DNA of 64,000 bases from Candidatus Doudnabacteria bacterium (GCA_003151625.1 PLYC01000021.1:16235-80234), one strand, 5' to 3'. Positions 23,641 to 44,747 are shown, numbered from the stretch's first letter. The notes: generated by a model not told the origin, from the sequence alone. Numbers and translations: made by a program.

Positions 23641-23938
23641 ATCTTAAAATTTAATTATTTAAAAAGATTCCCAAAAAATCCAAAATAAAGTGGGCTTTGC
23701 CTGTCCTCCGTAGCCTTGCCTGCCCGCCGAAGCTACAGCGAAGGAGGGGCGAAAGGAAAAAACCTCAAAAATTCTTAACTTCAACATTTTAAGTATACCA
23801 CAAATTAGTCGGCGTCCTCTGTAATCCCCGAACACCTTGAAAAACCTGGGATTTTATGGTAAACTGTGATAAGTTACTTTAAATTTTGAGGATTTTCCAA
23901 TCTTTCAATCTAAAACCTTCAATCTTAAATCTATATAT

Positions 23939-24013
23939 GGCGCTATCATCTAATGGTTAGGATAAGTGGTTTTCATCCACTAAATCGGGGTTCGATTCCC
24001 CGTAGCGCTACCA
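23939..24013 (+). tRNA. tRNA-Glu (anticodon UUC), CCA encoded
   Basis: Manual fold. Acceptor GGCGCTA/TAGCGCT with a G1-U72 wobble. Anticodon stem AGTGG/CCACT with loop TTTTCAT. T-arm CGGGG-TTCGATT-CCCCG. Discriminator A plus CCA. Confidence 0.75.
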
Positions 24014-25508
24014 AAGCAGAATTGCCGCCTTCAAGGGCGGTTTTTGCTTGATAGATATAAGAAAGTTTCGGGGTTGTAAAAGTTTGATAATTATAAATGG
24101 GCTTAATTGGAAAAATCATACCCATCAATTTTAATTTTTGCCAGTAGGTAGTTTTAGGCCAGAGTTTTGGCAAGTCGGCTATAAAGTCAAAAACAAAGCT
24201 CACAGTGTCATCAGCGTTAAAGTCCTGGGTCGCGCTGTCGCTAATTTCCAACTGCTTATCCGCCAGTAATTCCTTGACCTTGGCAAATTCAATTTTAAAA
24301 TCCTCATCGGGCAGTAAATCTCTTTTAACCAAATCCAGCAGTTTGGCTTTTTCCTGTTTTAAGTTTTCTATTTCCTTTTTGGCCTGTTCCTGCTGTTGAT
24401 TCTGCTGTTTAAGCCTGTTTTGGCCGACATCGGTTAGCACCTTTTTAAAGGTTTCCATTATTTCTTTGGTGGGCGTAATTTTGGCCAGACACTTGTCAAA
24501 CTCGTCCTCCAAAGTTTTTTTGGTGATGGCTTTTTTAGACGGGCAGTTTTTATTGTAACAGCGGTAGTAATAATACATACTGCCCCAGCGGTTTTCCGAA
24601 GTATGGGCGGTTAAAGGCCGGGAGCATAAGCCGCAGTCAACTTGGTGGCGCAGGGGGAATAACTCATTAGTCCGACTACCGGCGATAATGTCGCCTTTGG
24701 TGAATCGTTTTAAAAGCTTTTGGTTTTTGTAATAAATATCCTCGGTAATGAGCGTGGGGTGAGAACCTTTAAATTCGCCGCGCTTGTTGCAGATGAGGCC
24801 GAAATAAAATTTGTTGGTTAAAATTTTATGCATCAGCTGAAAGGAAATTTCTTTGCCCGAAGGCGAACGCAAGCCCATTTTGTTTACCTTAATCCGTAAT
24901 TCTTCCTGGGTATACATGCCTTTGAAATACTCTTCAAGCAAAAACTTAACAAGGCCAAACCGGGCAGGGTCTAAGATTATGGTTTTGTCGTGCTTGCCGT
25001 GGTTTTGGTTGAGGTAGCCAAAAGGCGCGCGGTGCGGGAAGCGGCCGGACTTAAGGCACTGGATTATGCCGTCGGTAACTCTCTCACTGCGAACATCGTT
25101 ATCAAGCTGGGCAATGCTAGCCATCATATTTCCCATAAACTTGCCAAAGGAATTTTCGCCAATGGCTTCGGTGGTGGAAATTAACTGGACGCTGATTTTA
25201 TCCAGCAGGCTTTTTATGGCCGAGTAGTCGTTGACGTTGCGGGACAGGCGGTCAACTTTGTTGACGATGACAAAGCTGATTTTGTTTTTCTTGTCGGCGA
25301 CAAACTTAAGCATAGCCTGGAGTCCGGGGCGGTCTGCGGTCTTGGCAGATTCGCCCTCATCGGAAAAAAGCTTAATGGCCTTAATGCCTTTGTCCTGTGC
25401 GTATTTTAAGCAGGCTTCTTTTTGGTTTCCGAGGCTAAAGCCGTCCACTTGGTCGGCGGTGGATACGCGGTAATAAATCACTCCCAGTTTTTGGTTTTCT
25501 TGGTTCAT
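23973..25508 (-). CDS. Large serine recombinase (resolvase/invertase catalytic domain, recombinase domain and a zinc-ribbon). Its 3' end overlaps the tRNA antisense strand, so the true C-terminus is uncertain.
   Basis: Active-site 'YYRVSTADQ' with 'VVNKVDRLSRN'. A 'CGLCSRP...YYYYRCYNKNC' zinc ribbon. A coiled-coil tail. Confidence 0.85.
   Translation of the reverse strand: MNQENQKLGVIYYRVSTADQVDGFSLGNQKEACLKYAQDKGIKAIKLFSDEGESAKTADRPGLQAMLKFVADKKNKISFVIVNKVDRLSRNVNDYSAIKSLLDKISVQLISTTEAIGENSFGKFMGNMMASIAQLDNDVRSERVTDGIIQCLKSGRFPHRAPFGYLNQNHGKHDKTIILDPARFGLVKFLLEEYFKGMYTQEELRIKVNKMGLRSPSGKEISFQLMHKILTNKFYFGLICNKRGEFKGSHPTLITEDIYYKNQKLLKRFTKGDIIAGSRTNELFPLRHQVDCGLCSRPLTAHTSENRWGSMYYYYRCYNKNCPSKKAITKKTLEDEFDKCLAKITPTKEIMETFKKVLTDVGQNRLKQQNQQQEQAKKEIENLKQEKAKLLDLVKRDLLPDEDFKIEFAKVKELLADKQLEISDSATQDFNADDTVSFVFDFIADLPKLWPKTTYWQKLKLMGMIFPIKPIYNYQTFTTPKLSYIYQAKTALEGGNSALVALRGIEPRFSG
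24022..24047 (+). terminator. Hairpin plus T-run immediately after the tRNA
   Basis: gccgcc-ttcaa-gggcgg ttttt. Confidence 0.55.
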
Positions 25509-25561
25509 AAAATTATTTTAAAATTAAGAATCTTCGGTCAAAATATTATACACCCGAAAAC

Positions 25562-25720
25562 TCATCCGGCAAAATTATTTTGCCTTTTTTCCTTGGCCCA
25601 CAGGTCAAAACCGATTTCAGCCAACTGATACATATCCTGCCGGAGCTGTTCCAGTTCTTCCCGGGTGAACCTGTTGCCGTAATCCCCAAGCGAATTTTTA
25701 AAATCATCCAGGGAAATCAT
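25562..25720 (-). CDS. Possible small protein (52 aa, 'MISLDDFKNSLGDYGNRFTREELEQLRQDMYQLAEIGFDLWAKEKRQNNFAG')
   Basis: Hand translation of an ORF absent from the track because it is under 60 aa. Helical and charged. Next to the recombinase, as for an excisionase or RDF, but no motif supports that. Confidence 0.2.
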   Translation of the reverse strand: MISLDDFKNSLGDYGNRFTREELEQLRQDMYQLAEIGFDLWAKEKRQNNFAG

Positions 25721-25740
25721 GGCTAAATTTTGTAATGTTT

Positions 25741-25915
25741 AAAAGCATTGAATTTATTGGTAAATTTTCTTAATTCTCTAGTTAAGAGGTATATATCAAG
25801 TCAATGGAAATTAAAAAATATAATTATTTGGCCAAGAAACCTTGAAATTTAAAATCATTGAATTTATTAAGGAATTTTATTTATTTCCAAGATATGAGGT
25901 ATAGATCAAGTCAGC
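25741..25915. repeat. Two imperfect ~65-bp direct repeats (25741-25805 and 25852-25915) beside the recombinase
   Basis: 'aaaa[gt]cattgaatttatt..gtaaatttt.tt.att.c.ag.ta.gaggtata[tg]atcaagtca' is repeated with about 111-bp spacing. Confidence 0.55.
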
Positions 25916-26247
25916 AAAAACATTAAGGTTTTAGTTGTTATGGTAATATGTTATCGCTTAGTAACAAGCTTACGGCCGCGCCCCTGCGGGGCGGCGGCCT
26001 GCGCCGTTGTCCCACTGGCCGCTTTGCTGGCCGTGGGACACGGCGTCTCAAGGTTGGATCTGGAAAATTGCGGTTAAATCAGCCGGGCAGTCAGGGCAGG
26101 TTCAGAGGGAAATTAGGCAGTAAACTTAAATGTTTGTCAAAGTCAAAATGGGGGCAAAATTAAAAAACAATCTTCACTACTTGAAGATTATCGTTTAGGT
26201 CAAAAACAAACAAAGAGTTAAGCGTGCTACATAAGAATTCTTCTGTG

Positions 26248-26991
26248 CTACACTTCTTTTCGCATATTGGAGATTATTTTGTTAACGGTTCCCTCATCTA
26301 AAAACTCGCCAGTTTGTTTCCGGACGGCTCTGCGTATCTCTATTCGGGGCAAATCCCGCAAAGACCAGATAAGCTGGTTGCGCTTGGTAACGGCCGGGTC
26401 TTTGACTCTTAATTTGCCGAGCTTAATTTTAGGGTTTTGGTATTTGAGTTGTAACGGGTGGATGCTTGTCTTAAACTCTTTGGTAATAAAGTCCCTAATA
26501 ACGCGTTCTGAAGCGTAGGGGCTGATTTTAATGGCTAAGGGATAAGCGGCTAATTCGTTGTCTATGTGGGTTTTACCGTATTTATGTTTGGGCTTTTGTT
26601 TTAAGTCCGAGACTTTGCAAAGGCCTAAATTTTCGTCTTCCAGGTAAGTAATAAAATCCAAATCGTGAAAGATATGATACCAAATGGCGTAGGCAAAGCT
26701 ATTATTAAGCGCGTACTTTTTTATGAATTTTTCCCGAATTTCTTTTTCTATCTGTTCGGTCTTCTCATACAGAAAAGCCTCGCCTTCTAGAGATACGGGA
26801 TAAAATCGGGGCTTTACAGGCTTATCTTCCGGATTATCCGAACTAAGATATTCCGCCGGCACCACCTTGTCCGGCATATACTTGGCCCGCATTTCCCAAA
26901 CAGCATCGTTAAAATCCTGCTTTGCGGAAACTTCGTAAAAATATTCCAAGGCTTTTTTACGGCTTTCGGAGGGTTGTTTTTGTTTTGGCAT
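26248..26991 (-). CDS. Hypothetical protein (247 aa) in the island
   Basis: ORF with an acidic C-terminal portion. No recognised motif. Confidence 0.45.
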   Translation of the reverse strand: MPKQKQPSESRKKALEYFYEVSAKQDFNDAVWEMRAKYMPDKVVPAEYLSSDNPEDKPVKPRFYPVSLEGEAFLYEKTEQIEKEIREKFIKKYALNNSFAYAIWYHIFHDLDFITYLEDENLGLCKVSDLKQKPKHKYGKTHIDNELAAYPLAIKISPYASERVIRDFITKEFKTSIHPLQLKYQNPKIKLGKLRVKDPAVTKRNQLIWSLRDLPRIEIRRAVRKQTGEFLDEGTVNKIISNMRKEV

Positions 26992-27154
26992 AATTTATAA
27001 ATCTAAATCGTCAACATCAATACCCAAAGCTTCCATTCGGTTTAAGGCCTCATCCGGGTCATCCTGAAATTGCTCGGCCAGTTCTTCCTTTAAGCCGTCC
27101 TCGTCCAATTCCATTCTGATTTCGTCTTCCAAATCTTCAAGAGGCATAAAATAA

Positions 27155-30100
27155 TTACGCGGTCACTAAACTCTTGTTGTCATAGTAGTTTTCATAAACA
27201 AAATTATAAACTTCAAATTTTTTGAATTCACAATCTTGCTCTGTGTAGGTAGGCGCGGGTAGTTTCTCAAATAATATATCTGATATGGCGCTCTTTACCC
27301 CCGAGCGGTTGGTTTCAAAATCTCTCCAATGTGGGACAAGAAGCGGCTTAAGATTTTCCAATAATTCGTGTGCCGTGCCTTTAATTTTAGCAACTTCATC
27401 CGGGTTAAGATTTTCTTTAACCAATAAGTCAAAAATTGCCAACTCCTCCTCATTTAAATTTTCCTTCACCGCACGTTGTTCTTCCACGCTCAAATCTTTT
27501 GCAAGGGAAATAAGATCGTCAAAAAGCTTGTCAACATCATGCGCGCCACTGTTATATTCCTGTAACAAAGCAAGTAAGCGATCCATAAATTTGGTTCGTT
27601 TTTTGTTCTTTCTTACCATTTCCGCTATTTTTTGTTCTAGCTCTGCGCTCATGGCCTCCACTTGAAGGTTTTTGTTTTCTAGACCCTCAAAAAATGTATG
27701 CAGTGCTTCGGAATCCAACTTACTTAAATCTTTCAACTTTTTATGTGGCGATATTACGTACTCACCAGCTTGAATAGACTTATCAAGTAAGTCCTCTAAA
27801 TCTTTTTTTACCTGGGTAACATCCACACTTTGAGCGCCTACATCTCGAATACGCGAAGCCAATACGCGAACGGCAGTCACTTCTTTATAATAATCTTCCG
27901 CGCTTGGATCCGGCAACACCGATCGGTAGGCACTTTGTAAATCCGAGGCTAAGTTTAAAAACTTTTTTTTAATTTCCTGTTTGCCAATTATTAAGTCGGC
28001 GAATTTTTCTAACAATAACAATTTTTGATCACCTGGCGCTTCCAACAAAGGCTTAAGTTCAATTTGTATAGCGCTCAAGAAATGTTTTACGGTTTTAAGT
28101 GTACTTTTTAAATCTTCTAAAAGCTCGTCTTTGCTTTTGATTATTTCATCTTTGTCTACACCGCTGGCCGCATACAATGCCAAGGCACGCTCAATATTTT
28201 TGAATACGCCAATGTAATCAACTATTAGCCCGTTCTTTTTGTCTGCGTCAGCTACGCGGTTGGCGCGGGCAATCGTCTGCATTAAAGTATGATTTTTGAG
28301 TGGTTTGTCCAAATATAATGTGGAGAGGTTTGGCACGTCAAAGCCGGTCATCCACATAGCGCAGACAAAAATAATCCGCAGATTGCTGTCGGCTTTCTTG
28401 AATTCTTCTTCCAAATTTCCGTGAATTATCCTATCCCGAATCGGCTTAACGTCAATCTCAAACTCTTCCATATCGGCGATTTCGTTCTGATTGTCGCCCA
28501 GACTTACCATTACCGCCATGTCAACATTTTCGTGCTGTTCCAGTTTTGCCAGTATTTTTTCGTGCTCACGTTCATCCTTGGCTCGGGAAAGGTCCATGCG
28601 CAATTTAGCGATGTAGCGATCCCACTCTTTTTTAACTTTGTCGTACATCCGGAACGTGGTTTTTTTATCAATACAAACCACCATGGCCTTGCCATTATAA
28701 CCCCGCCCAATGTAGTGTTCTACAATATCCCGAGCAATAACATTTAAGCGATCTTCGCGGGTAATAATTTCGTAAAAATTGGAGTACTCGCGTTCTAATC
28801 TTTCTTCTTCATCTTCATCCAAATCATACCTATCCATAAGCTGGCCTAACTGCTCCTCAAGGTTTTCGTTGACGTTTTTTAGCCTCGGCACCCTGTTTTC
28901 ATAATACAGCGGCACAGTTGCGCCATCGGCCACGGACTGGCCAAAATTATACACCGAAACATAACTGCCAAAAGTTTTTACCGTTTCGGCTTCACCGTCT
29001 GTCATTAGCGGAGTGCCGGTAAATCCAATAAAAGATGCATTGGGAAGTGCTTTTCGCATATTTAGCGCCATGCGGTCATATTGGGTACGGTGCGCCTCAT
29101 CGGTCATTACGATAATATCCTCTCGTTCGGAAATGGCGCTGGCGATATCTTGAAATTTCTGAATTGTCGTAAATACTTGCCTATGGTCTGCTCTCAGCAA
29201 TTTTTTAAGATCTTCTACAGAATCCGCATGTACTTCTTTTTCATACACCGCGCCAACATTGGCAAAATTATCGTATGCTTGTCCGTCCAACTGTTTCCTG
29301 TCTGTAACAATAACAAAAGTAAAATTACCGGTAAGTTTTCGCAAAACCTTTTGCGAAAGCCAAACCATAGAATATGATTTGCCCGAGCCTTGGGTATGCC
29401 AAAACACGCCAAGTTTGCCGTCCATTTGCTTACGATTAACAACATGTTCAAACGCCCGGTTAACACCGTAATATTGGAAATACCGCGGCACTATCTTTTT
29501 AGTCTCTCCCTTTGATTCATCAAACAAAATAAAATTTTCAAAAATATCCAAAAGCCTTGTTTTATCGCATACTCCGCTAATTATCGTAGACAAATCTGTT
29601 CTTGGTTTATTATCTTCGCTGTCGGCTTTTTTCCACTCATTGAAAAATTCGTAGGGTGCTGTCAGCGAGCCAAATTTATTTTCTATGCCATTGCTGATAA
29701 TAATTCCCATATTATACCAAAACAATTTGGGAATAGTATCTTTGTAATCGCGAATGTTGTCTTTATATGCATCCACCAAACTCTTGTGAGACGCTTTGAG
29801 TTCTAATAATACAAGCGGAATACCATTTACAAACAGCACAACGTCGGTTCTTCTGGTATACATTTCTCCTACGATCCACAATTGCGAAACGGCCAGAAAA
29901 TGATTATTCTTTGGATTTTCAAAGTCAAAAAACCTTACCCGCTCCGGCTTGCTTTCGCCGTTGGATTGGACGACATTCACGCTCACGCCGTCCCGTAAAA
30001 GTTTGTAAATTTCCTGATTAGCTTTAACCAAGCTTAAATTTGACCTGTCCCGCGTCAATGCGTCCATTGCCTGAACTAAAGATTCTTGTGACAAACCTTT

Positions 30101-30286
30101 ATTTAATTTTACCAGAGCAGGTAACAAAAACTTTTTCAATACCACTTCACCTTGATTTTCCCTTCCAAGCTTTAAATCATCCTCATCCGCAAATGCGTTT
30201 ATATGACAATCCGAATTGCCCCAAACTTCCTTAATAAGTTTGATGACAGTCTGTTCAACCAAATTGTCTTCAGAAAATGGGTTCAT
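27155..30286 (-). CDS. hsdR: Type I restriction enzyme R subunit
   Basis: 1043 aa. Helicase motifs include 'MTDEAHRTQ' (DEAH box) and 'GFTGTP'. A long coiled C-terminal domain. Adjacent to hsdS and hsdM. Confidence 0.9.
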   Translation of the reverse strand: MNPFSEDNLVEQTVIKLIKEVWGNSDCHINAFADEDDLKLGRENQGEVVLKKFLLPALVKLNKGLSQESLVQAMDALTRDRSNLSLVKANQEIYKLLRDGVSVNVVQSNGESKPERVRFFDFENPKNNHFLAVSQLWIVGEMYTRRTDVVLFVNGIPLVLLELKASHKSLVDAYKDNIRDYKDTIPKLFWYNMGIIISNGIENKFGSLTAPYEFFNEWKKADSEDNKPRTDLSTIISGVCDKTRLLDIFENFILFDESKGETKKIVPRYFQYYGVNRAFEHVVNRKQMDGKLGVFWHTQGSGKSYSMVWLSQKVLRKLTGNFTFVIVTDRKQLDGQAYDNFANVGAVYEKEVHADSVEDLKKLLRADHRQVFTTIQKFQDIASAISEREDIIVMTDEAHRTQYDRMALNMRKALPNASFIGFTGTPLMTDGEAETVKTFGSYVSVYNFGQSVADGATVPLYYENRVPRLKNVNENLEEQLGQLMDRYDLDEDEEERLEREYSNFYEIITREDRLNVIARDIVEHYIGRGYNGKAMVVCIDKKTTFRMYDKVKKEWDRYIAKLRMDLSRAKDEREHEKILAKLEQHENVDMAVMVSLGDNQNEIADMEEFEIDVKPIRDRIIHGNLEEEFKKADSNLRIIFVCAMWMTGFDVPNLSTLYLDKPLKNHTLMQTIARANRVADADKKNGLIVDYIGVFKNIERALALYAASGVDKDEIIKSKDELLEDLKSTLKTVKHFLSAIQIELKPLLEAPGDQKLLLLEKFADLIIGKQEIKKKFLNLASDLQSAYRSVLPDPSAEDYYKEVTAVRVLASRIRDVGAQSVDVTQVKKDLEDLLDKSIQAGEYVISPHKKLKDLSKLDSEALHTFFEGLENKNLQVEAMSAELEQKIAEMVRKNKKRTKFMDRLLALLQEYNSGAHDVDKLFDDLISLAKDLSVEEQRAVKENLNEEELAIFDLLVKENLNPDEVAKIKGTAHELLENLKPLLVPHWRDFETNRSGVKSAISDILFEKLPAPTYTEQDCEFKKFEVYNFVYENYYDNKSLVTA

Positions 30287-30298
30287 AGATTGTTGTAA

Positions 30299-31765: not shown

Positions 31766-31773
31766 AAGTGTAA

Positions 31774-33024: not shown

Positions 33025-34602
33025 TTATAAAATACTTTCCCAATCGTCCTGGATATTTTTTTCCAGCTTGTGAGCTTCGACGGTTAAACCTGTAAATTCA
33101 CTCATTAATTCTTTCATTCGCGCGTTAAAGTCCACATCGCTCATTTCTTTTTCTATAATCTCCACATAACGCCCAGGATTAAGTGAGTAGTCGTTAGCTC
33201 GAATTTCCTCAAGAGTTGCAACTTTGCATCGGCCTTTAATGTCTTGATATTTTTCTTCGCCTTTTTCTTTGCGATAGCGGCGAACAACACCGGCGATTTC
33301 TTGTATTTGCTCATCTGTCCAGTCGCTATGAGCACGGTCAATTTCGGTAAAAATATCTTGCGCGTTTATAAATAAAACTTTGTTTTGCCGTTCGCTGCCG
33401 CTTTTGCGTTTGTCAAAAAACCACAAGGTACAGGAAAGTGTAGCGTTCATAAACATATTTGTGCCAACGGAAACAATTGCATCCACCATTCCGGCGTCTA
33501 CCATTTTTTTGCGGATTTCTTTTTCCGCATTTCCGGCATCACTGGAAGCGTTTGACATAACAAAGCCTGCCCGTCCTTGCGGGTTTAAAGCACTAGCAAA
33601 CATTTGCATCCATAAATAATTAGCGTTGCTGATTTCACCTTTACCAGTAAGCGGCAATCCTAAATTGTATCGCGGGTCGCCTTGAATTTTTGCTGGATCA
33701 ATTACAATTTGTTTGTTCTTGTCTTTGCCTTTTACATTAAACGGCGGATTTGCAAGGACAAAGTCAAAAGCGCCAACGCTGTTAAACGTATCGGTATAAA
33801 AAGAATTTACTTCCGCAATTTTACCCGACAAACCGTGAATAGCTAGGTTCATTTTGGCCGTGCGAATGTTGCTACTACCTTTTTCTTGGCCATACAGTGC
33901 AACTTCGTTCATAACTTGAGTTTTCTTTTCGGAATGCGCTTTAACAAAATTTGCAGACTGCACAAACATACCGCCGCTTCCGCAGGCGGGGTCGTATATT
34001 TTTCCATGGTATGGCTCAATAATTTCTACCAGTAATTTAACAATAGATTGCGGCGTAAAAAACTCGCCGCCTTTGGCTCCTTCGGCGCGCGCAAACTCAC
34101 CAAGGAAATATTCGTAAATTTCCCCGAATGCGTCACCCTCAATGTCATCGGGGATTTGATTAAAATTTTTCAGTAAGGTGATTAATATCTGACTATTTTC
34201 GCCTGGAATTTTGTGAAGCGAAGTATAATCTTGCGGCAAAACACCGGCAAGATCGGTATTTTCTTCTTCTATTGCCTTCATCGCATCATTAATTTTTTTG
34301 CCAATATTTGCACTCTCAGGTAGGCTCATTAAATAAGAATACGTGGCAATTTCTGGCAAATACAGAACACCCTTGGATTTATAATGGTCAGGCGTAATAG
34401 GTTTATTTCTTCCGGAATAAGCTTTAACAGCGCGCTCTGCAACAATCTCCGACTGGAATCTCTTAAAACGTACGTCCGCAAACTTAAGAAAAATAAGCCC
34501 TAAAATTGGCTCGGAAATTTCGTTTAATTTTAGCCCGGAGTTTGCCCGAAGCTGTACCGCCGCAGACCAAAGCCTTTCGTGAAGTTGTTTTCTGGTTGTC
34601 AT
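33025..34602 (-). CDS. hsdM: Type I R-M N6-adenine DNA methyltransferase subunit
   Basis: Motif IV 'VLANPPFN', motif I 'DPACGSGGMF' and an HsdM N-terminal domain. Confidence 0.9.
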   Translation of the reverse strand: MTTRKQLHERLWSAAVQLRANSGLKLNEISEPILGLIFLKFADVRFKRFQSEIVAERAVKAYSGRNKPITPDHYKSKGVLYLPEIATYSYLMSLPESANIGKKINDAMKAIEEENTDLAGVLPQDYTSLHKIPGENSQILITLLKNFNQIPDDIEGDAFGEIYEYFLGEFARAEGAKGGEFFTPQSIVKLLVEIIEPYHGKIYDPACGSGGMFVQSANFVKAHSEKKTQVMNEVALYGQEKGSSNIRTAKMNLAIHGLSGKIAEVNSFYTDTFNSVGAFDFVLANPPFNVKGKDKNKQIVIDPAKIQGDPRYNLGLPLTGKGEISNANYLWMQMFASALNPQGRAGFVMSNASSDAGNAEKEIRKKMVDAGMVDAIVSVGTNMFMNATLSCTLWFFDKRKSGSERQNKVLFINAQDIFTEIDRAHSDWTDEQIQEIAGVVRRYRKEKGEEKYQDIKGRCKVATLEEIRANDYSLNPGRYVEIIEKEMSDVDFNARMKELMSEFTGLTVEAHKLEKNIQDDWESIL

Positions 34603-34653
34603 ACTAATTTATATTTAAAAATAACTGCTCGCGCTTTAATTTTTAGTCCTTTG

Positions 34654-35922
34654 CTATTTCAATAAATCCTCAAGCTCACAGGAGAGCAGGGCGGATTTGT
34701 TAAGCACGATTTGTTCTTTCTGGTTTAGGTTGTCCGCGGTAAGTCTAATAACTTTTGTGATTATAGCGTTGCCAATAACAACGTGGTTGGTTTTCTTTAA
34801 GTAGTTTTCGGTTTTTTCGTAAAACAGTGTTATAAAGCGCTTTAGCTTGTCGCTTAGTTTATCTTTCATATTTCCCGTAACCAATGCGACTACTTTTTCG
34901 TTTATTTCCGTCGGTATATTCCCCTCCGCGAATACTATCCAATAATCGCTTATGGCATAGGCAAAGCGCACTGGCATTTTATCTTTAGTTTCGTAAAAAT
35001 AAACAAAACGGTAATTCTGGGAACTAAAATCCTGGCCAATGGCTATTTCGCGCAACTCGCCGACTGTATTTATATCGTAAGAGTTTACAAGCCGGAGATA
35101 ATTTTCCAGCCAAGTTTCAAGCCAATGCGTAATAAAAGTCTGATCCACAAATAGCGGAGTTAAATCCTGCTGTAAGTTTGTTTTGTTTACTTTGTTCATT
35201 TGCACGGTCAGCCGGTCAAACAGCGCCTGCAAATGCGTAACATCAACCTCCTTGGCTTTAAGATAGTCCAAATCGGGGACAGTTTTCTTTTCCATATACC
35301 ACAGCAGGTCGTAAATGTCGCGGCCTTTTTCTTCGTATATTTCCTTGCCCACGCCACGCTGTCCACGTAAAAATATAGCGGCAATTTTACTGGCCATAAG
35401 CGCAGACATATTGTAAGTCTTTATTACGAATGACAGCTGGTCGTGGTTTACGGGTATCCGTTCCGTAACCGCTTTGGGAGCCGTAAAATGGTTCAAATCA
35501 ATTTTAACGTGCACCTGTTTTGAAGGGTGGCTCATTCCCAGCTCGTCGCCGATAATGAATTTTAAAAGCAACCCGCGGCCGTTGGTAATTTTTATGTTCA
35601 AAAGATCCGGCCCGGTGCTGTAGGTTTCCAAAAAATGTTCCTGCAACGCTTCCTTAAGGTTGTTAAGCAAGCTGTCGGTAGGGGCTTCCGCAATTTCAAA
35701 ATCCAAATCAACGGACATTCTGTTCAACTCATGGCAAATGCGCAAGGCGGAGCCGCCGTACATAGTCCAATTGCTGTAGACCGGGTGGTGATAAATAAAA
35801 TTTAACAGGTAATACTGCAATTCCTCTTTTAAGGCGTTGCGCTGAACTTCAATATCCACCTGTCCGTAACGAGACAGGTCTTCAAGTTTTCTTTTTAGTA
35901 AAATAATTATTTGGTTATTCAT
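34654..35922 (-). CDS. AbiEii/AbiGii-family nucleotidyltransferase (DUF1814) toxin-like protein
   Basis: 'TMYGGSALRICHELNRMSVDLDF' matches the AbiEii NTase signature 'GGTAL...R.S.DLDF'. It overlaps the upstream partner by 8 bp. Confidence 0.65.
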   Translation of the reverse strand: MNNQIIILLKRKLEDLSRYGQVDIEVQRNALKEELQYYLLNFIYHHPVYSNWTMYGGSALRICHELNRMSVDLDFEIAEAPTDSLLNNLKEALQEHFLETYSTGPDLLNIKITNGRGLLLKFIIGDELGMSHPSKQVHVKIDLNHFTAPKAVTERIPVNHDQLSFVIKTYNMSALMASKIAAIFLRGQRGVGKEIYEEKGRDIYDLLWYMEKKTVPDLDYLKAKEVDVTHLQALFDRLTVQMNKVNKTNLQQDLTPLFVDQTFITHWLETWLENYLRLVNSYDINTVGELREIAIGQDFSSQNYRFVYFYETKDKMPVRFAYAISDYWIVFAEGNIPTEINEKVVALVTGNMKDKLSDKLKRFITLFYEKTENYLKKTNHVVIGNAIITKVIRLTADNLNQKEQIVLNKSALLSCELEDLLK

Positions 35923-36535
35923 TGTTTAAATATTTTTTAATCATCTCATAAAATAAAGTCTGCTCCTTTTTGTCCATTTCTTCAATATCAATGCGCAGGT
36001 CGCGGATTAGCCCATCCACCATTTCCGGCTTTATCCCCCGAAACTGTCTGGTCTTAAAATACAACAGGTCAAACAATGCTTTGGAAGGCGCGGCAATAAA
36101 AAAATCAAATTTTCCTTTTACCAAAGAGAATCCGGAAAATAATTCTTTTTTAATTGAATTGTAGCCAAAGTTTCCGGCCCGCGTCTGGTAGTCTCTGGTA
36201 ACTTTTAGCGTAACCGAGGTAATAGTCTGGATGGCTTCGGTTGTTAGTTCGTAATACTGCAAAGCCGCCCAGGAGCTGACGTAAGACGGCGTCCTAATGA
36301 CGTTGGCCAGATAAAATTTGTAGGAAATATCCGCCCTGTTGTTTTCGTAAAAGTAAGTTGTTGTATACAGCCCTTTTTTAAACTGGATAATATCCTTGGA
36401 CTTCAAAGAGCGGCCGATATAGCTATCAACCGTGGTATTTTTTAGGCCGTACTGCTTGCTTAACTGGTAAATAGCGCTTTTGTTAAAATACGGCAAACTC
36501 TTGAGCTGTTCTAACAATATTTCTCTATATTTCAT
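35915..36535 (-). CDS. Probable AbiEi-type antitoxin/transcriptional regulator, partner of AbiEii
   Basis: 206 aa immediately upstream of, and overlapping, the AbiEii-like gene. This is the typical AbiEi size and arrangement. No strong motif, so it is called by context. Confidence 0.45.
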   Translation of the reverse strand: MKYREILLEQLKSLPYFNKSAIYQLSKQYGLKNTTVDSYIGRSLKSKDIIQFKKGLYTTTYFYENNRADISYKFYLANVIRTPSYVSSWAALQYYELTTEAIQTITSVTLKVTRDYQTRAGNFGYNSIKKELFSGFSLVKGKFDFFIAAPSKALFDLLYFKTRQFRGIKPEMVDGLIRDLRIDIEEMDKKEQTLFYEMIKKYLNNE

Positions 36536-36631
36536 AATTGTGATGTAATCATAACAATGATGAAATACTTTGTCAATATGGATAGTTATTTGGATATAAA
36601 TTTAAGAAAATACCCTTTATTTATGGGTATT

Positions 36632-36790
36632 TTGCTTCCTTATGGCTTTTTATTGTAATTCTGGATCCCGTCCAGTCAAGGGTAAAACCAAATTATTTGC
36701 CATAGGCCATAAATTGGTTTTAATCCCGTTGACTGTCCAGGCGTTCCAGAATTTTGTTTTCGCCATAATCAGTAAGCAAAAAAGATTATG
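36632..36790 (+). promoter_or_regulatory. Conserved ~160-bp intergenic module, copy A (divergent region between abiEi and the radC-like gene)
   Basis: Aligns along its length with 38489-38651. Shared blocks: 'ttgcttccttatggctt', 'gtcaagggtaaa', 'tttatttgcc.t.ggccataaa', 'tttaatccc.ttgactg' and 'gccataat.agtaa'. The hairpin positions carry compensatory differences between the copies. Confidence 0.6.
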
Positions 36791-37270
36791 GAATACCAAG
36801 TCAATGTCAATTATCGGTTTCAAGCAGTTAATGAAAAGGAGGCAAAAGAAAAAGCTGTAAAATATTTAGCTAACACCCTAAAAGTCCAGCCAATGTCCAA
36901 GGCAGTATGCAGTCCCCTTGAGATTGCCGACCAGTGCTGGGATTTTAGGAAAAAGGACAAGGAGCACTTTTGCGTGTTCTTTTTAAATACCCAAAACCAA
37001 ATTATCAGCCGGGAGATTATTAGCATTGGAACTTTGAACGCCAGTCTAATTCACCCGCGGGAATGTTTTAGGACGGCAATATCTAAAAACTGCGCCTCAG
37101 TCATTTTTGTCCATAACCATCCAAGCGGCAGTCTAGAACCCTCGGACGAAGACATTGCCGTAACCAAGCGCCTTAAAGATGCCGGCAAACTTATCGGCAT
37201 CGAAGTTTTGGACCATGTGATTGTAACGGCTGAGTCCCATAAAAGCCTTAAGGAACAAGGCTTGGTATAA
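36788..37270 (+). CDS. RadC-like JAB-domain protein (DUF2466)
   Basis: JAMM/RadC signature 'VIFVHNHPSGSLEPSDEDIAVTKRLKDAGKLIGIEVLDHVIV'. Confidence 0.8.
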   Translation: MEYQVNVNYRFQAVNEKEAKEKAVKYLANTLKVQPMSKAVCSPLEIADQCWDFRKKDKEHFCVFFLNTQNQIISREIISIGTLNASLIHPRECFRTAISKNCASVIFVHNHPSGSLEPSDEDIAVTKRLKDAGKLIGIEVLDHVIVTAESHKSLKEQGLV

Positions 37271-37276
37271 GCCAGA

Positions 37277-38062
37277 CTAACTCTTTGAGCCCTTTTCGGT
37301 TTCGATTTTGAATTCTTCAAATTTGTTTTTATATGCAATAAAAAGATCTTGGGCCAAATCCAAAATTACTTTGGTATGTTTTTCCATTGTCGGCGATATT
37401 CTCTGACGCCTTGTTCTATAGCCTCGAGTTTTTAATAAGTTATCCGAGGTATTTATATCCATCTCGTGAATAATTTGATTCCTTACGGTAAAAGCATCTT
37501 TAAGTGCGTTCATTCTGTCAGCAGTGAATATCTTATTTGTGCTTAACCCAGAAGCGTCAGAAACCATACACAGTTGTCCAACGGACTGGAGGCTGTCTTT
37601 GGTCATACTGCTTAAGTATTCTTTTAAAAATATTTCCCTTGGATTTTGGTCTATCAAAGCCAAGGCAACTGTATTTAATATCTTTTCCGGACTCTTTTTG
37701 TCTATACCATTTTTAACGTAATTTCTAAATTTTTCTTGGGCATTTTTGTCTACAGTTATCAATTTTGAAAGTTTGGTTTTGGTCAGCTGTTTAACAAATA
37801 CGTCAAGTCCAGCGCAAGCAAAAATCAGCATTGCACGATATAGGTCTTGTTGGTAATGGGTAGATGGGCCACCCTTTGAGCCGCGTCTGATAATTTTATA
37901 CAGCAAATTGAAGTTATTAACGGACTCTGCTGTCTTTAGCAAAATATTGTATTCAAAACTAAAAAGACTGTCGTCCTTCTCAGCCGAAAGGTGAATTTTA
38001 TAAAATCCTAATTCCCGTTTTTTAACAGCCTTTTTCGCCTTACTGGATTTAAGCTTTGCCAT
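37277..38062 (-). CDS. Hypothetical 261-aa protein with a C-terminal HEPN-like Rx4HxxD motif
   Basis: 'AFTVRNQIIHEMD' resembles the HepT/HEPN motif R-N-x-x-x-H. The N-terminus is Lys-rich. Convergent with radC-like and preceded by a 112-aa ORF. Confidence 0.45.
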   Translation of the reverse strand: MAKLKSSKAKKAVKKRELGFYKIHLSAEKDDSLFSFEYNILLKTAESVNNFNLLYKIIRRGSKGGPSTHYQQDLYRAMLIFACAGLDVFVKQLTKTKLSKLITVDKNAQEKFRNYVKNGIDKKSPEKILNTVALALIDQNPREIFLKEYLSSMTKDSLQSVGQLCMVSDASGLSTNKIFTADRMNALKDAFTVRNQIIHEMDINTSDNLLKTRGYRTRRQRISPTMEKHTKVILDLAQDLFIAYKNKFEEFKIETEKGSKS

Positions 38063-38074
38063 AAAGATTTTACT

Positions 38075-38413
38075 TCAGGAAACATTATCGCCGTCAGATG
38101 GCATGGCCGTTGCAATTGCGTTGGTAAATAACGAATCACAGTGGACTAACAAAGACTCAATTAAACGCCCATGGTATATTGCGTAGACTTCGGAACTGAT
38201 AGTTTTGCTCTTAGGTTTAATAATAAAAAAGGTCAGCTCTTTGCCACTTTCTACTTCCGGACGGAACCACGCCAAATATTTCCATTGTTGCGCCGTATGT
38301 GTAAAATCGCCATCTTTATCATAAGACCAAGTGACTATTAGCCCGTCATCAATTGCCTTCTTAAAAGAGGATAGCACTTTATTCGGAGTGGAAGTTTCTA
38401 AATGTACGGCCAT
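38075..38413 (-). CDS. Hypothetical 112-aa protein, upstream partner of the HEPN-motif ORF
   Basis: ORF tightly linked to the HEPN-motif gene, with a 12-bp gap. No MNT (GSxxxGxxxxxSDxD) motif seen. Confidence 0.4.
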   Translation of the reverse strand: MAVHLETSTPNKVLSSFKKAIDDGLIVTWSYDKDGDFTHTAQQWKYLAWFRPEVESGKELTFFIIKPKSKTISSEVYAIYHGRLIESLLVHCDSLFTNAIATAMPSDGDNVS

Positions 38414-38488
38414 AAAATTTTCATTATTTATAGCACTATTTTAAAACTTTACTAATATAAAGTCAATTTTGCAAAAAAACCAATTCCT

Positions 38489-38651
38489 TTGCTTCCTTAT
38501 GGCTTCTCATTATACTGGCCGTTTACGGCCGGTCAAGGGTAAATTTCATTTATTTGCCGTGGGCCATAAAATCAATTTAATCCCTTGACTGCCGTAACCT
38601 GCGGCCAGTATATGATTGCCATAATAAGTAATCAAGAAAGGAGTTAATATG
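38489..38651 (+). promoter_or_regulatory. Conserved ~160-bp intergenic module, copy B
   Basis: See copy A. Hairpin 'ctggccgtttacggccgg' here versus 'ctggatcccgtccag' in A. A downstream 'ggccag' here versus 'tccag' in A. Confidence 0.6.
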
Positions 38652-38846
38652 CCTAAAGTCAAAAAGGCAGTTAGCAAGAGGCAGGGAATCACGCCGGAGA
38701 TGAAGTTAAACATCATCAAGGCGTCCTTGCAGAGAAGTATCAATTACTTTATGGAATTGAGACACTCTGTAGACCCCTCTTCCAGCGATTATCACGATTT
38801 CGGAAAAAAGGTTTCCGCGTATATCGCTGTAAAGCAGACAGTCTAA
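38649..38846 (+). CDS. Small hypothetical protein (65 aa) downstream of module B
   Basis: ORF with an 'aaaggag' RBS. Basic N-terminus. Confidence 0.35.
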   Translation: MPKVKKAVSKRQGITPEMKLNIIKASLQRSINYFMELRHSVDPSSSDYHDFGKKVSAYIAVKQTV

Positions 38847-38898
38847 CAAACACCAAAACAAAAACAAAAATCTTTCTTTAATTTTTAACCTTATCCCA

Positions 38899-39057
38899 AT
38901 GAAAATTATGACTGCACAGTTTGTCTACGAGATTACCTGTCCAAGATGCCAATACACATGGAGCGCTACCAAGGAAGAGACCTTTGACCTTGATATTGTG
39001 TCCTGCTCCCAATGTGGTTCCTGTGAGCTTGAAATTACCAAAAAGTTAGAAGCTTAA
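38899..39057 (+). CDS. Small zinc-ribbon protein (52 aa, 'MKIMTAQFVYEITCPRCQYTWSATKEETFDLDIVSCSQCGSCELEITKKLEA')
   Basis: Hand-translated. A CPRC...CSQCGSC four-Cys ribbon. Not in the track because it is under 60 aa. Confidence 0.3.
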   Translation: MKIMTAQFVYEITCPRCQYTWSATKEETFDLDIVSCSQCGSCELEITKKLEA

Positions 39058-39298
39058 AATCAAAACAAAAACAAAATTTTTTTATGGTCGCAAATTTGCT
39101 AAAACCTCCAAAAACGCGTTAAACTGAATTCATTAGCGGAATAAAATCACGGAATTGCCGTAATTCCTGGATTAAGAGGTTGTAATGCTGTGAACAGAAG
39201 GCTACCACAAAAGCCCGAACTTTGGTTCGGGTTTTTATTTATGGTAACTTAGACATTCCTTTGTCTTTTATGCCAAAGTCTGGTAAGTTTAATACATT

Positions 39299-43158: not shown

Positions 43159-43578
43159 TTAATTCCAGTCTTCAACTGCATTCGGTATTATTATAGCAGG
43201 TTTAAAGGTTTTGTCAAACTCTCCATATTCCATTAAACATACGTCAATTTGAGGCCTAAATTCAAGCATTTTCGGATTTCGCAAAAAATACATTTTTATG
43301 GCTCGCAAAAGTTTTTGCTGTTTGTAAATATTTACCGATTCCACTCCCTTCCCAAACTTGTCCGCGCCCGCAGTCCTGGTTTTAACTTCCACAAAGACAA
43401 TGGAGTGTTTATCTTTGGCGATAAAGTCTATCTCACCCAAGCGCTTGCCCTTTTTATTGTACTCGTTTCTGGCAATAATTTTGTAACCCAGTTTTTTATA
43501 TTCTTCCTGCGCGGCTTCCTCCCCAAGCTGGCCAAGGGTTTTTGGATTTTTATTTTTCGATGTAAACCATCTTGGCAT
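43159..43578 (-). CDS. YraN/UPF0102-family endonuclease-like protein
   Basis: 'GEEAAQEEYKKLGYKIIARNEYNKKGKRLGEIDFIAKDKHSIVFVEVKTR' is a UPF0102 signature. Confidence 0.65.
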   Translation of the reverse strand: MPRWFTSKNKNPKTLGQLGEEAAQEEYKKLGYKIIARNEYNKKGKRLGEIDFIAKDKHSIVFVEVKTRTAGADKFGKGVESVNIYKQQKLLRAIKMYFLRNPKMLEFRPQIDVCLMEYGEFDKTFKPAIIIPNAVEDWN

Positions 43579-43661
43579 AAAAATTTCTACTAAATACTAA
43601 AAAAACTAAAATACTAAATCGGCCAGCTTTCGTATTTCGTTACTTTAATATTTAGTAGAGG

Positions 43662-44060: not shown

Positions 44061-44065
44061 ATAAA

Positions 44066-44146: not shown

Positions 44147-44150
44147 ATTG

Positions 44151-44678: not shown

Positions 44679-44747
44679 ATAATTTTCTAAGAGAAAATTA
44701 GTGTGGATTAACTTTTGTTTCCTGATGAAACCTTTGTTGTTTATTAC

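What the first reader, a model, noticed from the sequence alone, without database searches (positions are those of the whole stretch)
23939..39100. About 15-kb low-GC defence/mobile island integrated next to tRNA-Glu
Immediately 3' of tRNA-Glu lies a large serine recombinase whose ORF even runs antisense into the tRNA. The cargo behind it is, in order: a full Type I R-M system with an embedded HEPN-like gene, AbiEi/AbiEii, a radC-like gene, an HEPN-like pair and small ORFs.

By eye this block is markedly more AT-rich than the flanking housekeeping genes.

The far boundary is not marked by an obvious direct repeat of the tRNA 3' end, as expected for serine-recombinase elements. I place it before the metallophosphoesterase or pilin genes.
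Basis: partly seen in the sequence, partly recalled or inferred. Interest (0 to 1): 0.6.

Follow-up and report, generated by a model that had tools for sequence, protein, structure and literature searches.

The report
Serine-recombinase defence island in tRNA-Glu
This is a real 15.2-kb mobile defence island in a Patescibacteria (CPR) genome, inserted into the last 7 bases of tRNA-Glu by a large serine recombinase whose own gene spans the attachment site, so insertion swaps the enzyme's C-terminal tail.

Summary
tRNA-Glu(UUC) lies at 23939-24013. A 511-aa large serine recombinase (LSR, 23973-25508, minus strand) overlaps it antisense by 41 nt. The cargo is as described: HsdR/HsdS/HsdM with an embedded 488-aa unknown gene, AbiEi/AbiEii, a short RadC, a RiboL-PSP HEPN protein and small ORFs. 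GC is 39.3% against 44.8% and 43.0% in the flanks, a modest and patchy drop.

I could place the far boundary. GCTACCA (39201-39207) repeats the tRNA 3' end (24007-24013). A terminator follows it, and a conserved arm precedes it. Island length is 15,194 bp.

The unexpected part concerns the LSR gene. Read in the LSR frame, that arm encodes FCSQHYNLLIQELRQFRDFIPLMNSV*. This matches the C-termini of family members found on a circular 10.8-kb contig and at a tandem-element junction. So attP lies inside the LSR gene. Integration replaces a native 26-aa tail with 10 residues read antisense from host tRNA.

108 of the 120 best homologues, which are Patescibacteria or unclassified metagenome sequences, carry such a tRNA-antisense tail. 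Four integrated relatives including this one share the same attR layout.

No empty site or excision junction was found for this copy. What the tail swap does is inference. Tyrosine-integrase precedents exist (Mx8, SSV). I found none for serine recombinases.

The parts
23939..24013 (+). tRNA-Glu(UUC), the integration target. Positions 1-69 are host DNA. The last 7 nt are shared with, or supplied by, the element.
   Evidence: ARAGORN; Rfam tRNA 62.5 bits
24007..24013 (+). attL core GCTACCA (tRNA positions 70-76). The crossover must lie within it.
   Evidence: The only sequence shared by the two island ends. The equivalent 6-8 nt cores occur in L085, L088 and L167.
24024..24041 (+). Element-borne rho-independent terminator for the regenerated tRNA. 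It is encoded antisense inside the LSR C-terminal coding region (residues AKTALEGGN).
   Evidence: Terminator scan; sequence. The same arrangement is seen in L086.
23973..25508 (-). Large serine recombinase in its integrated form, 511 aa. Residues 502-511 (LRGIEPRFSG) and the stop codon are read from host tRNA DNA. The stop TGA is antisense to anticodon positions 35-36 plus A37.
   Evidence: Pfam PF00239 E 3e-32, PF07508, PF13408; NCBIfam XisF/Ccr-like hits below cut-off; 584 homologues.
39119..39207 (-). attR P arm. In the LSR frame it encodes the native LSR tail FCSQHYNLLIQELRQFRDFIPLMNSV plus a stop codon. In the excised circle it would be joined to LSR codon 501, giving a 527-aa protein.
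   Evidence: Best of 2,924 six-frame window peptides against the native-tail profile, E 5.9e-5, next best 0.089. DNA alignment with three other attR sites.
39201..39207 (+). attR core GCTACCA, the displaced original 3' end of tRNA-Glu.
39209..39236 (+). Original terminator of tRNA-Glu, now stranded at the far end of the island.
   Evidence: 12-pair hairpin plus T-run. The same layout is seen at the attR of L085, L088 and L167.
25562..25720 (-). 52-aa helical protein directly upstream of the LSR, conserved in position and sequence across the family. Candidate directionality factor or regulator (inferred).
   Evidence: Alignment of 10 orthologous small ORFs from 9 loci.
25738..25913 (.). Two 66-nt direct repeats (D2, 80% identical) between the 52-aa ORF and the conserved non-coding block. 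The relative L083 has one copy.
25914..26249 (.). 336-nt non-coding block with a GC-rich hairpin core (about 25960-26110). It is about 95% identical in L082 and L083. It may be a structured RNA or a replication origin. Function unknown.
   Evidence: z -3.8 and -3.1; no Rfam match.
26248..26991 (-). 247-aa protein of an unannotated family (482 representative clusters). It is shared with L083 only among the loci examined.
26995..27147 (-). 50-aa acidic protein, conserved in L083.
27155..30286 (-). Type I restriction subunit HsdR.
   Evidence: Pfam; PADLOC REase_I E 5.5e-180.
30299..31765 (-). 488-aa gene embedded between hsdS and hsdR. Family of 78 proteins, none with Pfam. Nearly invariant R171-N-x-F-x-H176. 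Confident AF2 model with no PDB match.
31774..33024 (-). Type I specificity subunit HsdS.
33025..34602 (-). Type I methyltransferase HsdM.
34654..35922 (-). AbiEii nucleotidyltransferase toxin (422 aa, with a C-terminal extension beyond the AbiEii match).
   Evidence: Pfam PF08843; PADLOC AbiEii E 6.5e-31.
35915..36535 (-). AbiEi antitoxin/regulator.
   Evidence: PADLOC AbiEi E 1.4e-34.
36631..36745 (+). D1a, a conserved hairpin element in the divergent region between abiEi and radC.
36788..37270 (+). Short RadC-like JAB-domain protein (160 aa).
   Evidence: Pfam PF04002 E 3e-43; PHROG 10276.
37277..38062 (-). RiboL-PSP-type HEPN protein (261 aa, RNQIIH motif).
   Evidence: Pfam PF18735, 36.3 bits against a cut-off of 28.4.
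38075..38413 (-). 112-aa ORF upstream of the HEPN gene in the same operon. No family hit.
38488..38602 (+). D1b, the second copy of the hairpin element.
38649..39057 (+). Two small plus-strand ORFs: 65 aa (38649-38846) and a 52-aa CxxC...CxxC zinc ribbon (38899-39057).

Best explanation
The segment from 24007/24014 to 39200/39207 (15,194 bp) is the integrated form of a circular element of a Patescibacteria host.

How it integrated:
- Its large serine recombinase recombined an element site (attP) with the extreme 3' end of the tRNA-Glu gene (attB). The crossover lies within GCTACCA, tRNA positions 70-76.
- The element supplies the last few bases of the tRNA and a new terminator. Both are encoded antisense within the 3' end of the LSR gene.
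- The original 3' end and its terminator are displaced to the far end of the island.

Consequence for the LSR gene:
- attP lies inside the LSR open reading frame, so the gene is split by integration.
- The free circle encodes a 527-aa enzyme ending in a conserved, predicted helical 26-aa tail (motif N-x-L-I-x-E-I/L-K/R-x-W/F).
- The integrated copy encodes a 511-aa enzyme whose last 10 residues and stop codon come from the antisense strand of the host tRNA (T-arm to anticodon loop).

Cargo:
- A Type I R-M system with an embedded unknown gene.
- AbiEi/AbiEii.
- A HEPN protein with a small partner.
- A RadC-like protein and small ORFs.

Shown computationally: gene content, both junctions, the in-frame tail, family-wide generality, and a circular relative.

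Inferred: the exact crossover dinucleotide; that this copy can still excise; that the 52-aa upstream protein is a directionality factor; and that the tail swap changes LSR activity, by analogy with Mx8 IntP/IntX.
For: Domain content and cargo.

Family-wide tRNA-antisense tail:
- 108 of the 120 best LSR homologues carry a T-arm-antisense motif (GIEP, GFEP, RIEL) in the last 30 aa.
- In 96 of them the motif starts exactly 8 residues from the C-terminus.
- The tRNAs found overlapping homologues are Glu-UUC, Glu-CUC and Arg-UCU. A tRNA-Lys-UUU lies about 200 nt beyond the truncated LSR of L089.

attR layout (terminator hairpin, 6-8 nt tRNA 3' remnant, conserved arm) is found in four places:
- L085:1503 and L088:5374.
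- L167, about 7066.
- The window at 39201-39236. The four sites are aligned.

The native tail, tested without reference to the repeat:
- A profile of four annotated non-tRNA C-termini (P0024, P0031, P0100, P0104) was searched against all six-frame peptides of the window and four loci. Its two best hits were the predicted arms of L088 (E 3e-4) and L085 (E 0.045).
- A six-tail profile ranks window 39238-39122(-) first of 2,924 window peptides (E 5.9e-5, next best 0.089). The hit is in the LSR frame through TGGTAGC.
- The same profile finds L167:7053-7148 at E 9e-7.

Other forms of the element:
- Free form: L091, carrying native-tail LSR P0024, is a 10,823-nt contig with a 30-nt terminal overlap and no tRNA.
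- Tandem elements at tRNA-Arg: LSR1 reads into the arm of element 2 and keeps the native tail. LSR2 reads into the tRNA.
- The L083 contig (LSR 72% identical, different cargo) breaks exactly at ...GCTTTGGTG, inside the core.

Supporting points:
- Variable defence cargo sits on a conserved LSR plus small-ORF backbone. Replication genes (REP_ORF2-G2P, Prim-Pol, Toprim primase) occur in relatives.
- The native tail is predicted helical.
- Composition.
Against: - No empty tRNA-Glu site and no attP or attB junction was found for this element. The exact-protein look-ups returned only this same contig.
- The flanking SDR gene is not syntenic with tRNA-Glu in other genomes.
- The direct repeat is only 7 nt, and TGGTAGC occurs 5 times on that strand of the window. 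The repeat alone proves nothing.
- The four-sequence tail profile alone scores the window arm weakly (E 7). Its significance depends on adding the L085 and L088 tails, which are themselves predictions.
- No recognisable replication, transfer or packaging gene lies in this copy. How it moves between cells is unknown.
- Part of the cargo has much lower GC3 (27-31% for the 488-aa gene and hsdS) than the LSR (54%). The island is therefore mosaic and may include secondary insertions.
- Nothing here tests whether the 511-aa and 527-aa proteins differ in activity.
Confidence: 0.85

Rival explanations
1. A fixed relic. The block was once mobile but is now an immobile defence island. The integrated LSR with its tRNA-derived tail is inactive, or retained for another role.
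For: No excised junction or empty site was found for this copy. This copy has no identifiable replication or transfer gene. The truncated LSRs P0004 and P0005 in relatives show that decay does happen.
Against: The LSR ORF, the 52-aa partner, both att arms and the in-frame tail with its stop codon are all intact. A 97%-identical LSR and a 72%-identical LSR with different cargo exist in another metagenome, which implies recent mobility of the lineage. A circular relative exists.
Confidence: 0.2
2. The boundary is elsewhere. The GCTACCA at 39201 is a chance match, and the island ends at 38960 (GGAGCGCTACCA), or extends past clpP/nusA, or has no defined end.
For: GGAGCGCTACCA at 38960-38971 is an 11/12 match to the tRNA 3' end. 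A weak 30-nt inverted match lies at 48631-48660.
Against: The 38960 site lies inside a plausible zinc-ribbon ORF, has no terminator, and has no tail-coding arm beside it. Only 39122-39207 carries the in-frame native tail and the arm plus terminator layout shared with L085, L088 and L167. Genes from 39299 onward are housekeeping-like: phosphoesterase, pilin, ClpP, NusA.
Confidence: 0.04
3. The tRNA is cargo of the element, or the LSR is an invertase or resolvase unrelated to integration and the overlap with the tRNA is incidental.
For: The ORF overlap could in principle arise by read-through. An open frame of about 13 codons is not rare.
Against: The frame and the end point are the same in 96 of 120 homologues. 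The circular relative has no tRNA. In the tandem array only the tRNA-proximal LSR has the tRNA tail. Displaced tRNA ends with terminators sit at the far end of four elements.
Confidence: 0.02

Closest known systems
Large serine recombinase (serine integrase) integrative elements: phiC31, Bxb1, A118, SPbeta, SCCmec Ccr, XisF
   Same: Same domain architecture: resolvase catalytic domain, recombinase domain, zinc ribbon with a long coiled coil. Very short identity between attL and attR (6-8 nt). The recombinase gene sits at one end of the element. A small adjacent protein could be a directionality factor.
   Different: The target is a tRNA gene 3' end rather than a protein-coding gene. attP lies inside the recombinase ORF. 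NCBIfam XisF and Ccr models score far below their cut-offs, so this is a separate clade. The host is Patescibacteria. Only one relative was found in IMG/VR.
Myxophage Mx8 IntP/IntX and SSV-type (fusellovirus) integrases
   Same: attP lies within the integrase coding sequence, so integration into a tRNA gene gives the prophage integrase a new 3' end (Mx8) or splits it (SSV) (PMC6070905, PMC4383910).
   Different: Those are tyrosine recombinases, which are unrelated enzymes with a different mechanism. Here only the last 26 codons are exchanged, and the replacement tail is the antisense reading of the tRNA itself.
Serine-recombinase elements already reported at tRNA genes: Mycobacterium AICEs at tRNA-Leu; phage phiRSM1 at the tRNA-Ser 3' end
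   Same: Serine-recombinase integration at a tRNA gene. This is described as rare (PMC3218068). The Islander paper stated that none were known (PMC4383910).
   Different: Different hosts. phiRSM1 uses a small resolvase-like enzyme. The passages I read make no mention of attP inside the gene or of a tail swap. I did not compare sequences with those enzymes.
tRNA-flanked genomic/defence islands (Islander/TIGER signature)
   Same: An intact tDNA at one end, a displaced tDNA fragment at the other, the integrase next to the tDNA, and cargo of R-M and abortive-infection genes.
   Different: The displaced fragment is only 7 nt, and my local alignment did not pick it up. The integrase is a serine recombinase, not a tyrosine recombinase.
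PrrC/RloC-type genes embedded in Type I R-M loci (recalled from my own knowledge, not checked in a paper here)
   Same: The 488-aa gene sits between hsdS and hsdR and has a conserved R-N-x-F-x-H motif of the HEPN Rx4-6H type.
   Different: No ABC-ATPase domain. No profile or fold similarity to any HEPN or other family.

Membership tests
Large serine recombinase (serine integrase) | N-terminal resolvase catalytic domain with the serine nucleophile motif | tested here: met
   PF00239 E 3e-32 over residues 10-155. The Y-R-V-S-T block (R14, S16) is invariant in 30 homologues.
Large serine recombinase (serine integrase) | C-terminal recombinase domain plus zinc ribbon with an inserted coiled coil | tested here: met
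   PF07508 at 36 bits (cut-off 21.1). PF13408 at 24.1 bits, just under its cut-off of 25.3. Four invariant Cys. Long helices 347-424 in the AF2 model of P0024.
Large serine recombinase (serine integrase) | attP x attB recombination at a 2-bp crossover, giving attL and attR with minimal shared sequence | tested here: inconclusive
   6-8 nt shared cores in four elements fit this. The crossover dinucleotide and attB were not observed.
Large serine recombinase (serine integrase) | A recombination directionality factor for excision | not testable with these tools
   A conserved roughly 50-aa ORF lies upstream of the LSR in all loci. It is a candidate only.
tRNA-targeting genomic island (Islander signature) | An intact tDNA at one end and a displaced tDNA fragment at the other, with the integrase inside | tested here: met
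   tRNA-Glu 23939-24013. Displaced GCTACCA plus terminator at 39201-39236. The fragment is only 7 nt.
tRNA-targeting genomic island (Islander signature) | Tyrosine-family integrase | tested here: not met
   The only recombinase in the island is a serine recombinase.
Integrases whose gene spans attP (Mx8 / SSV type) | attP lies inside the integrase ORF, so the C-terminus differs between free and integrated forms | tested here: met
   In-frame conserved tail across the P arm. Native-tail proteins on a circular contig and at a tandem junction.
Integrases whose gene spans attP (Mx8 / SSV type) | Tyrosine recombinase homologous to IntP or SSV Int | tested here: not met
   Serine recombinase domains only.
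Type I restriction-modification system | HsdR, HsdM and HsdS all present and intact | tested here: met
   Pfam and PADLOC hits for all three, as full-length ORFs.
AbiE (type IV toxin-antitoxin / abortive infection) | Adjacent AbiEi and AbiEii genes | tested here: met
   PADLOC AbiEi E 1.4e-34 and AbiEii E 6.5e-31. The two genes overlap by 8 nt.
HEPN ribonuclease (for the 488-aa gene embedded in the R-M system) | Profile or fold similarity to a HEPN family, plus the Rx4-6H motif | tested here: inconclusive
   The RNxFxH motif is nearly invariant. There is no Pfam, PADLOC or NCBIfam hit, no hhalign match to the neighbouring RiboL-PSP HEPN, and no PDB hit.
Prophage | Capsid, tail, terminase or lysis genes | tested here: not met
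   No structural hits in Pfam (all ORFs of 80 aa or more) or in PHROGs (the unannotated ORFs, RadC and HEPN). The family is nearly absent from IMG/VR.
ICE / IME | Relaxase, oriT, or type IV secretion/coupling proteins | tested here: not met
   None among the Pfam hits of island ORFs of 80 aa or more. oriT is not testable here.
Integrative plasmid (AICE-like) | A replication initiator on the element | tested here: inconclusive
   Relatives carry REP_ORF2-G2P, Prim-Pol or Toprim primase. In this copy the 247-aa protein shows no similarity to those Reps.

The most novel reading that the evidence does not exclude
The C-terminal tail exchange could be a built-in state switch for a serine integrase.

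- The free circle makes a 527-aa enzyme with a helical tail that favours, or is needed for, attP x attB integration.
- The integrated copy makes a 511-aa enzyme with a tRNA-antisense tail and different directionality or activity.
- Directionality would then be partly hard-wired in DNA topology, rather than depending on a separate factor alone.
- The family would also be a large natural set of serine integrases aimed at conserved tRNA 3' ends.
Probability: 0.25. Interest if true: 0.8.

Novelty: new variant of a known kind. Interest (0 to 1): 0.66.

Why it matters
Serine integrases are prized genome-engineering tools, and the control of their directionality is an active structural question. Three points follow.

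- This is a large, previously undescribed clade: 584 homologues at E <= 1e-30. The classified members are Patescibacteria.
- It targets tRNA 3' ends. One source calls that rare for serine recombinases (PMC3218068) and another called it unknown (PMC4383910).
- Its gene is remodelled by its own reaction. That gives a directly testable case of state-dependent integrase isoforms.

It also shows how CPR bacteria, which have tiny genomes, acquire and exchange defence systems. Type I and Type III R-M, AbiE, OLD/UvrD-like genes and a DGR all ride on the same LSR backbone.

Finally, it gives a rule for delimiting these islands that repeat-based tools may miss, because the repeat is only 6-8 nt long.

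Tried and rejected
- **Empty-site search through the left-flank SDR gene.** 80 loci were found, but none is syntenic with tRNA-Glu. The SDR gene occurs in many unrelated CPR contexts.
- **Exact-protein look-ups of the LSR and SDR for strain variants.** Only the source contig came back.
- **Local alignment of the tRNA plus or minus flanks against the window.** It found no remnant, because the repeat is only 7 nt.
- **Candidate remnant at 38960-38971.** Rejected: it lies inside a zinc-ribbon ORF, with no terminator and no tail-coding arm.
- **A 30-nt inverted match at 48.6 kb.** Not pursued. It is weak and lies beyond housekeeping genes.
- **Rfam searches** at gathering and at E <= 5. Nothing but the tRNA was found for the D1 repeats, the D2 repeats or the GC-rich block.
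- **247-aa protein as a rolling-circle Rep.** No BLASTP similarity and no Pfam hits across 32 family members.
- **488-aa protein as HEPN.** No profile or fold support.
- **IMG/VR scan with an LSR profile.** One close relative only.
- **attR search in L086, L087 and L163.** No attR within the 10-kb flank. Those elements are probably longer.
- **Literature searches** for CPR serine-recombinase elements or attP inside an LSR gene. Nothing was found. This shows absence from the held library only.

Full report
**Source.** The window is part of a 246.8-kb metagenome contig (ENA ERZ27254241 k141_694420). The best matches to its flanking SDR gene are MAGs labelled Paceibacteria or Patescibacteria, so the host is a CPR bacterium.

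**Checking the observation.** ARAGORN and Rfam place tRNA-Glu(UUC) at 23939-24013 on the plus strand. On the minus strand, ORF 23973-25508 (511 aa) has Resolvase, Recombinase and zinc-ribbon domains. It is a large serine recombinase (LSR). Its last 41 nt are antisense to the tRNA from the anticodon loop to the CCA end.

- HsdR
- an unannotated 488-aa gene
- HsdS
- HsdM
- AbiEii and AbiEi
- a short RadC
- a RiboL-PSP HEPN protein
- a 112-aa ORF
- small ORFs

GC is 39.3% in the island, against 44.8% on the left and 43.0% on the right. The island holds the lowest-GC 15-kb stretch of the window. The deviation is concentrated in the Type I R-M genes and the HEPN gene. The LSR, AbiE and RadC genes have host-like GC3. 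'Markedly AT-rich' is therefore an overstatement, but the direction is right.

**The overlap with the tRNA is a family trait.**
- A search with the LSR found 584 homologues at E <= 1e-30. Most are 505-515 aa. Those that carry a source name are Patescibacteria or unclassified metagenome bacteria.
- Of the best 120, 108 end with a motif such as ...LVA(P/L)RGIEP(L/R)xxG. This is the antisense translation of a tRNA: CCA, acceptor 3' strand, T-arm, variable loop and anticodon stem.
- In 96 of them the motif starts exactly 8 residues from the C-terminus.
- Fetched contexts show tRNA-Glu(UUC), tRNA-Glu(CUC) and tRNA-Arg(UCU) overlapping the LSR end. A tRNA-Lys(UUU) lies about 200 nt beyond a truncated LSR in L089.
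- In the window the stop codon TGA is the complement of anticodon positions 35-36 plus A37 (read directly from the sequence).
- By the same logic, anticodons NUC, NUU and NCU all give a stop codon at that place. This fits the tRNAs seen, but it is my inference.

**Finding the far end.** A local alignment of the tRNA against the window found no remnant. The relative L085 (LSR 56% identical) did show remnants. About 10 kb from its LSR there are two copies of a terminator hairpin followed by the tRNA 3' end.

Searching for the antisense of the last 7 nt (TGGTAGC) to the left of each LSR then revealed the same layout in three places:
- L085:1503
- L088:5374
- the window at 39201-39207

The layout is a terminator hairpin, a short spacer, TGGTAGC, then CTT and a conserved arm. 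A fourth case came from L167. The four sites align.

In the window, GCTACCA at 39201-39207 repeats tRNA positions 70-76 (24007-24013). A 12-pair terminator follows it at 39209-39236. In all four elements attL and attR share only 6-8 nt. The identity ends exactly where attL continues into the tRNA and attR continues into the arm. The crossover must therefore lie in that core.

The island is 15,194 bp. The 7-nt repeat alone means nothing, because TGGTAGC occurs five times on that strand. The case rests on what sits next to it.

**attP is inside the LSR gene.**
- If the crossover is in GCTACCA, the last 10 codons and the stop of the integrated LSR are host tRNA DNA.
- In the circle the ORF would instead continue into the far-end arm.
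- The three continuations are similar peptides: LVA|FCSQHYNLLIQELRQFRDFIPLMNSV* in the window, LVA|FAFQNYNSIVEEIKHFADVFKLVEGV* in L085, and LVA|FTKQNLNPLMQEIKSW... in L088.
- They resemble the C-termini of the few family members that lack a tRNA tail: P0024, P0031, P0100 and P0104.

I tested this without using the repeat.
- A profile of those four annotated tails was searched against every six-frame peptide of the window and four loci. Its two best hits were the predicted arms of L088 (E 3e-4) and L085 (E 0.045). The window arm scored only E 7.
- A profile of six tails ranks window 39238-39122(-) first of 2,924 peptides (E 5.9e-5, next best 0.089). The hit is in the same codon phase through TGGTAGC as the LSR.
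- The same profile picks L167:7053-7148 at E 9e-7.

The reconstructed free-form protein is 501 + 26 = 527 aa. The native-tail relatives are 523-530 aa. In an AF2 model of P0024 the tail (residues 498-525) is helical at moderate confidence.

**Free and tandem forms exist in relatives.**
- L091, which encodes P0024, is a 10,823-nt contig with a 30-nt terminal direct overlap and no tRNA. That is a circular element. It carries a Type III-like R-M system.
- P0104 sits in a chromosome, but at the junction of two tandem elements at tRNA-Arg.
- Its ORF runs into the arm of the next element and keeps the native tail. The second LSR runs into the tRNA.
- The two sequences are the same up to ...CCGAAAGTACCCC and then diverge.
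- The L083 contig (LSR 72% identical, different cargo) stops at ...GCTTTGGTG, inside the core. That is what an assembly-graph branch at att would produce.

**Element anatomy.**
- A roughly 50-aa helical protein sits directly upstream of the LSR in all nine loci compared and is clearly homologous. It is the obvious candidate for a directionality factor or regulator, but that is inference.
- The C-terminal coding region of the LSR also encodes, antisense, a rho-independent terminator placed right after the regenerated tRNA (24024-24041).
- Relatives carry REP_ORF2-G2P, Prim-Pol or Toprim-primase genes next to the LSR.
- Their cargo varies: Type IIG and Type III R-M, PIN, an OLD-like ATPase with a UvrD helicase, nSTAND/Mrr, Fic, and a DGR.
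- This fits small integrative plasmid-like elements that shuttle defence genes.
- In this copy no replication gene is recognisable. The 247-aa protein belongs to an unannotated family of 482 representative clusters. It shows no similarity to the Reps.
- No phage structural or conjugation genes were found. An IMG/VR scan found one close relative only.

**The 488-aa gene inside the R-M system.**
- It belongs to a family of 78 proteins with no Pfam domains. Some members consist of the N-terminal roughly 300 aa only.
- R171-N-x-F-x-H176 is nearly invariant. That is the form of a HEPN Rx4-6H motif.
- The AF2 model is confident (pLDDT 88.5).
- Foldseek against the PDB, a profile search of PDB sequences, and hhalign against the neighbouring RiboL-PSP HEPN protein all gave nothing.
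- 'HEPN-like' therefore remains a guess.

**Comparison with what is known.**
[quoted passage not shown] It also notes that the Mx8 and SSV integrases extend across attP (PMC4383910).
- A survey of actinobacterial elements calls serine-recombinase integration into tRNA genes rare. It cites Mycobacterium AICEs (tRNA-Leu) and phiRSM1 (PMC3218068).
- For Mx8, integration gives int a new 3' end, and the altered protein has changed specificity (PMC6070905).
- I found no paper on CPR serine-recombinase elements, or on an LSR gene that spans attP. That is absence from the held library, not proof of absence.
- I therefore rate this a new variant of a known kind. It works like other serine-integrase elements and like Mx8 in its gene remodelling, but it combines the two in a new clade and host group.

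**What is not shown.**
- No empty site and no excision junction was found for this copy.
- The crossover dinucleotide is not known.
- It is not known whether this copy is still mobile.
- It is not known whether the tail swap changes activity.
- The route between cells is unknown.

Noticed in passing
window 36631-36745 and 38488-38602; L089:2400-2527 and 3045-3175; L084:8-140 and 660-788: A roughly 115-nt conserved element (D1) occurs twice per element, in divergent intergenic regions upstream of radC and of a small ORF.

- It forms a long hairpin with 32 predicted pairs, 13 of them with compensatory changes across six copies.
- It has no Rfam match.
- Both window copies also contain a strong minus-strand sigma-70-like promoter that points at the abiEi/Eii operon and at the 112-aa/HEPN operon.

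It could be an RNA leader, an operator or a single-stranded DNA structure.
   Followed up: partly
window 25914-26249: A 336-nt non-coding block lies between the 247-aa gene and the LSR module.

- It has a GC-rich hairpin core, GTAGCAC direct repeats around an EcoRI-site palindrome, and a terminator-like hairpin.
- It is about 95% identical in L082 and L083, in line with the neighbouring 247-aa gene (94%), although the LSR of L083 is only 72% identical. The module looks recently exchanged.
- It folds better than shuffles on both strands (z -3.8 and -3.1).
- It has no Rfam hit.

It may be an origin of replication or a non-coding RNA.
   Followed up: partly
window 25738-25803 and 25848-25913: A tandem-like duplication of a 66-nt segment (80% identical) lies upstream of the 52-aa ORF. 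L083 has a single copy.
   Followed up: no
window 22846-23640; loci L002-L081: The SDR (FabG-like) gene left of the tRNA has 60-82% identical copies in many different CPR lineages, and in MAGs labelled as other phyla. None has conserved neighbours and none has tRNA-Glu beside it. This suggests wide horizontal spread of this gene.
   Followed up: partly
L085:1240-1520: Two copies of 'host downstream sequence, then terminator, then tRNA 3' end' lie about 197 nt apart. A GC-rich 120-nt stretch sits between them at the distal end of the element. It looks like the scar of an earlier integration or of a miniature derivative.
   Followed up: partly
L167:11470-21331: The LSR element abuts only a 3' half of tRNA-Glu(CUC). 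The intact tRNA-Glu lies 9.7 kb further on, next to a tyrosine integrase gene. Two unrelated integrase types appear to have used the same tRNA in series.
   Followed up: partly
L092/L094/L096 (relatives of P0104): A related LSR element carries a diversity-generating retroelement (bAvd plus reverse transcriptase) next to pilin-like Fib_succ_major genes.
   Followed up: no
window 23690-23750: A GC-rich, hairpin-prone stretch in the otherwise AT-rich spacer between the SDR gene and tRNA-Glu. Not examined.
   Followed up: no
window 15108-16007, 43159-45525 and 58464-60059: Other low-GC genes or patches in the window: a Bro-N domain protein near MarR-type regulators, a run of small ORFs including UPF0102/NERD, and a 208-aa plus 321-aa gene pair. 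They may be further foreign DNA.
   Followed up: no
window 34654-35922: AbiEii is 422 aa, but the AbiEii models cover only about residues 16-276. The C-terminal roughly 145 aa are unassigned.
   Followed up: no
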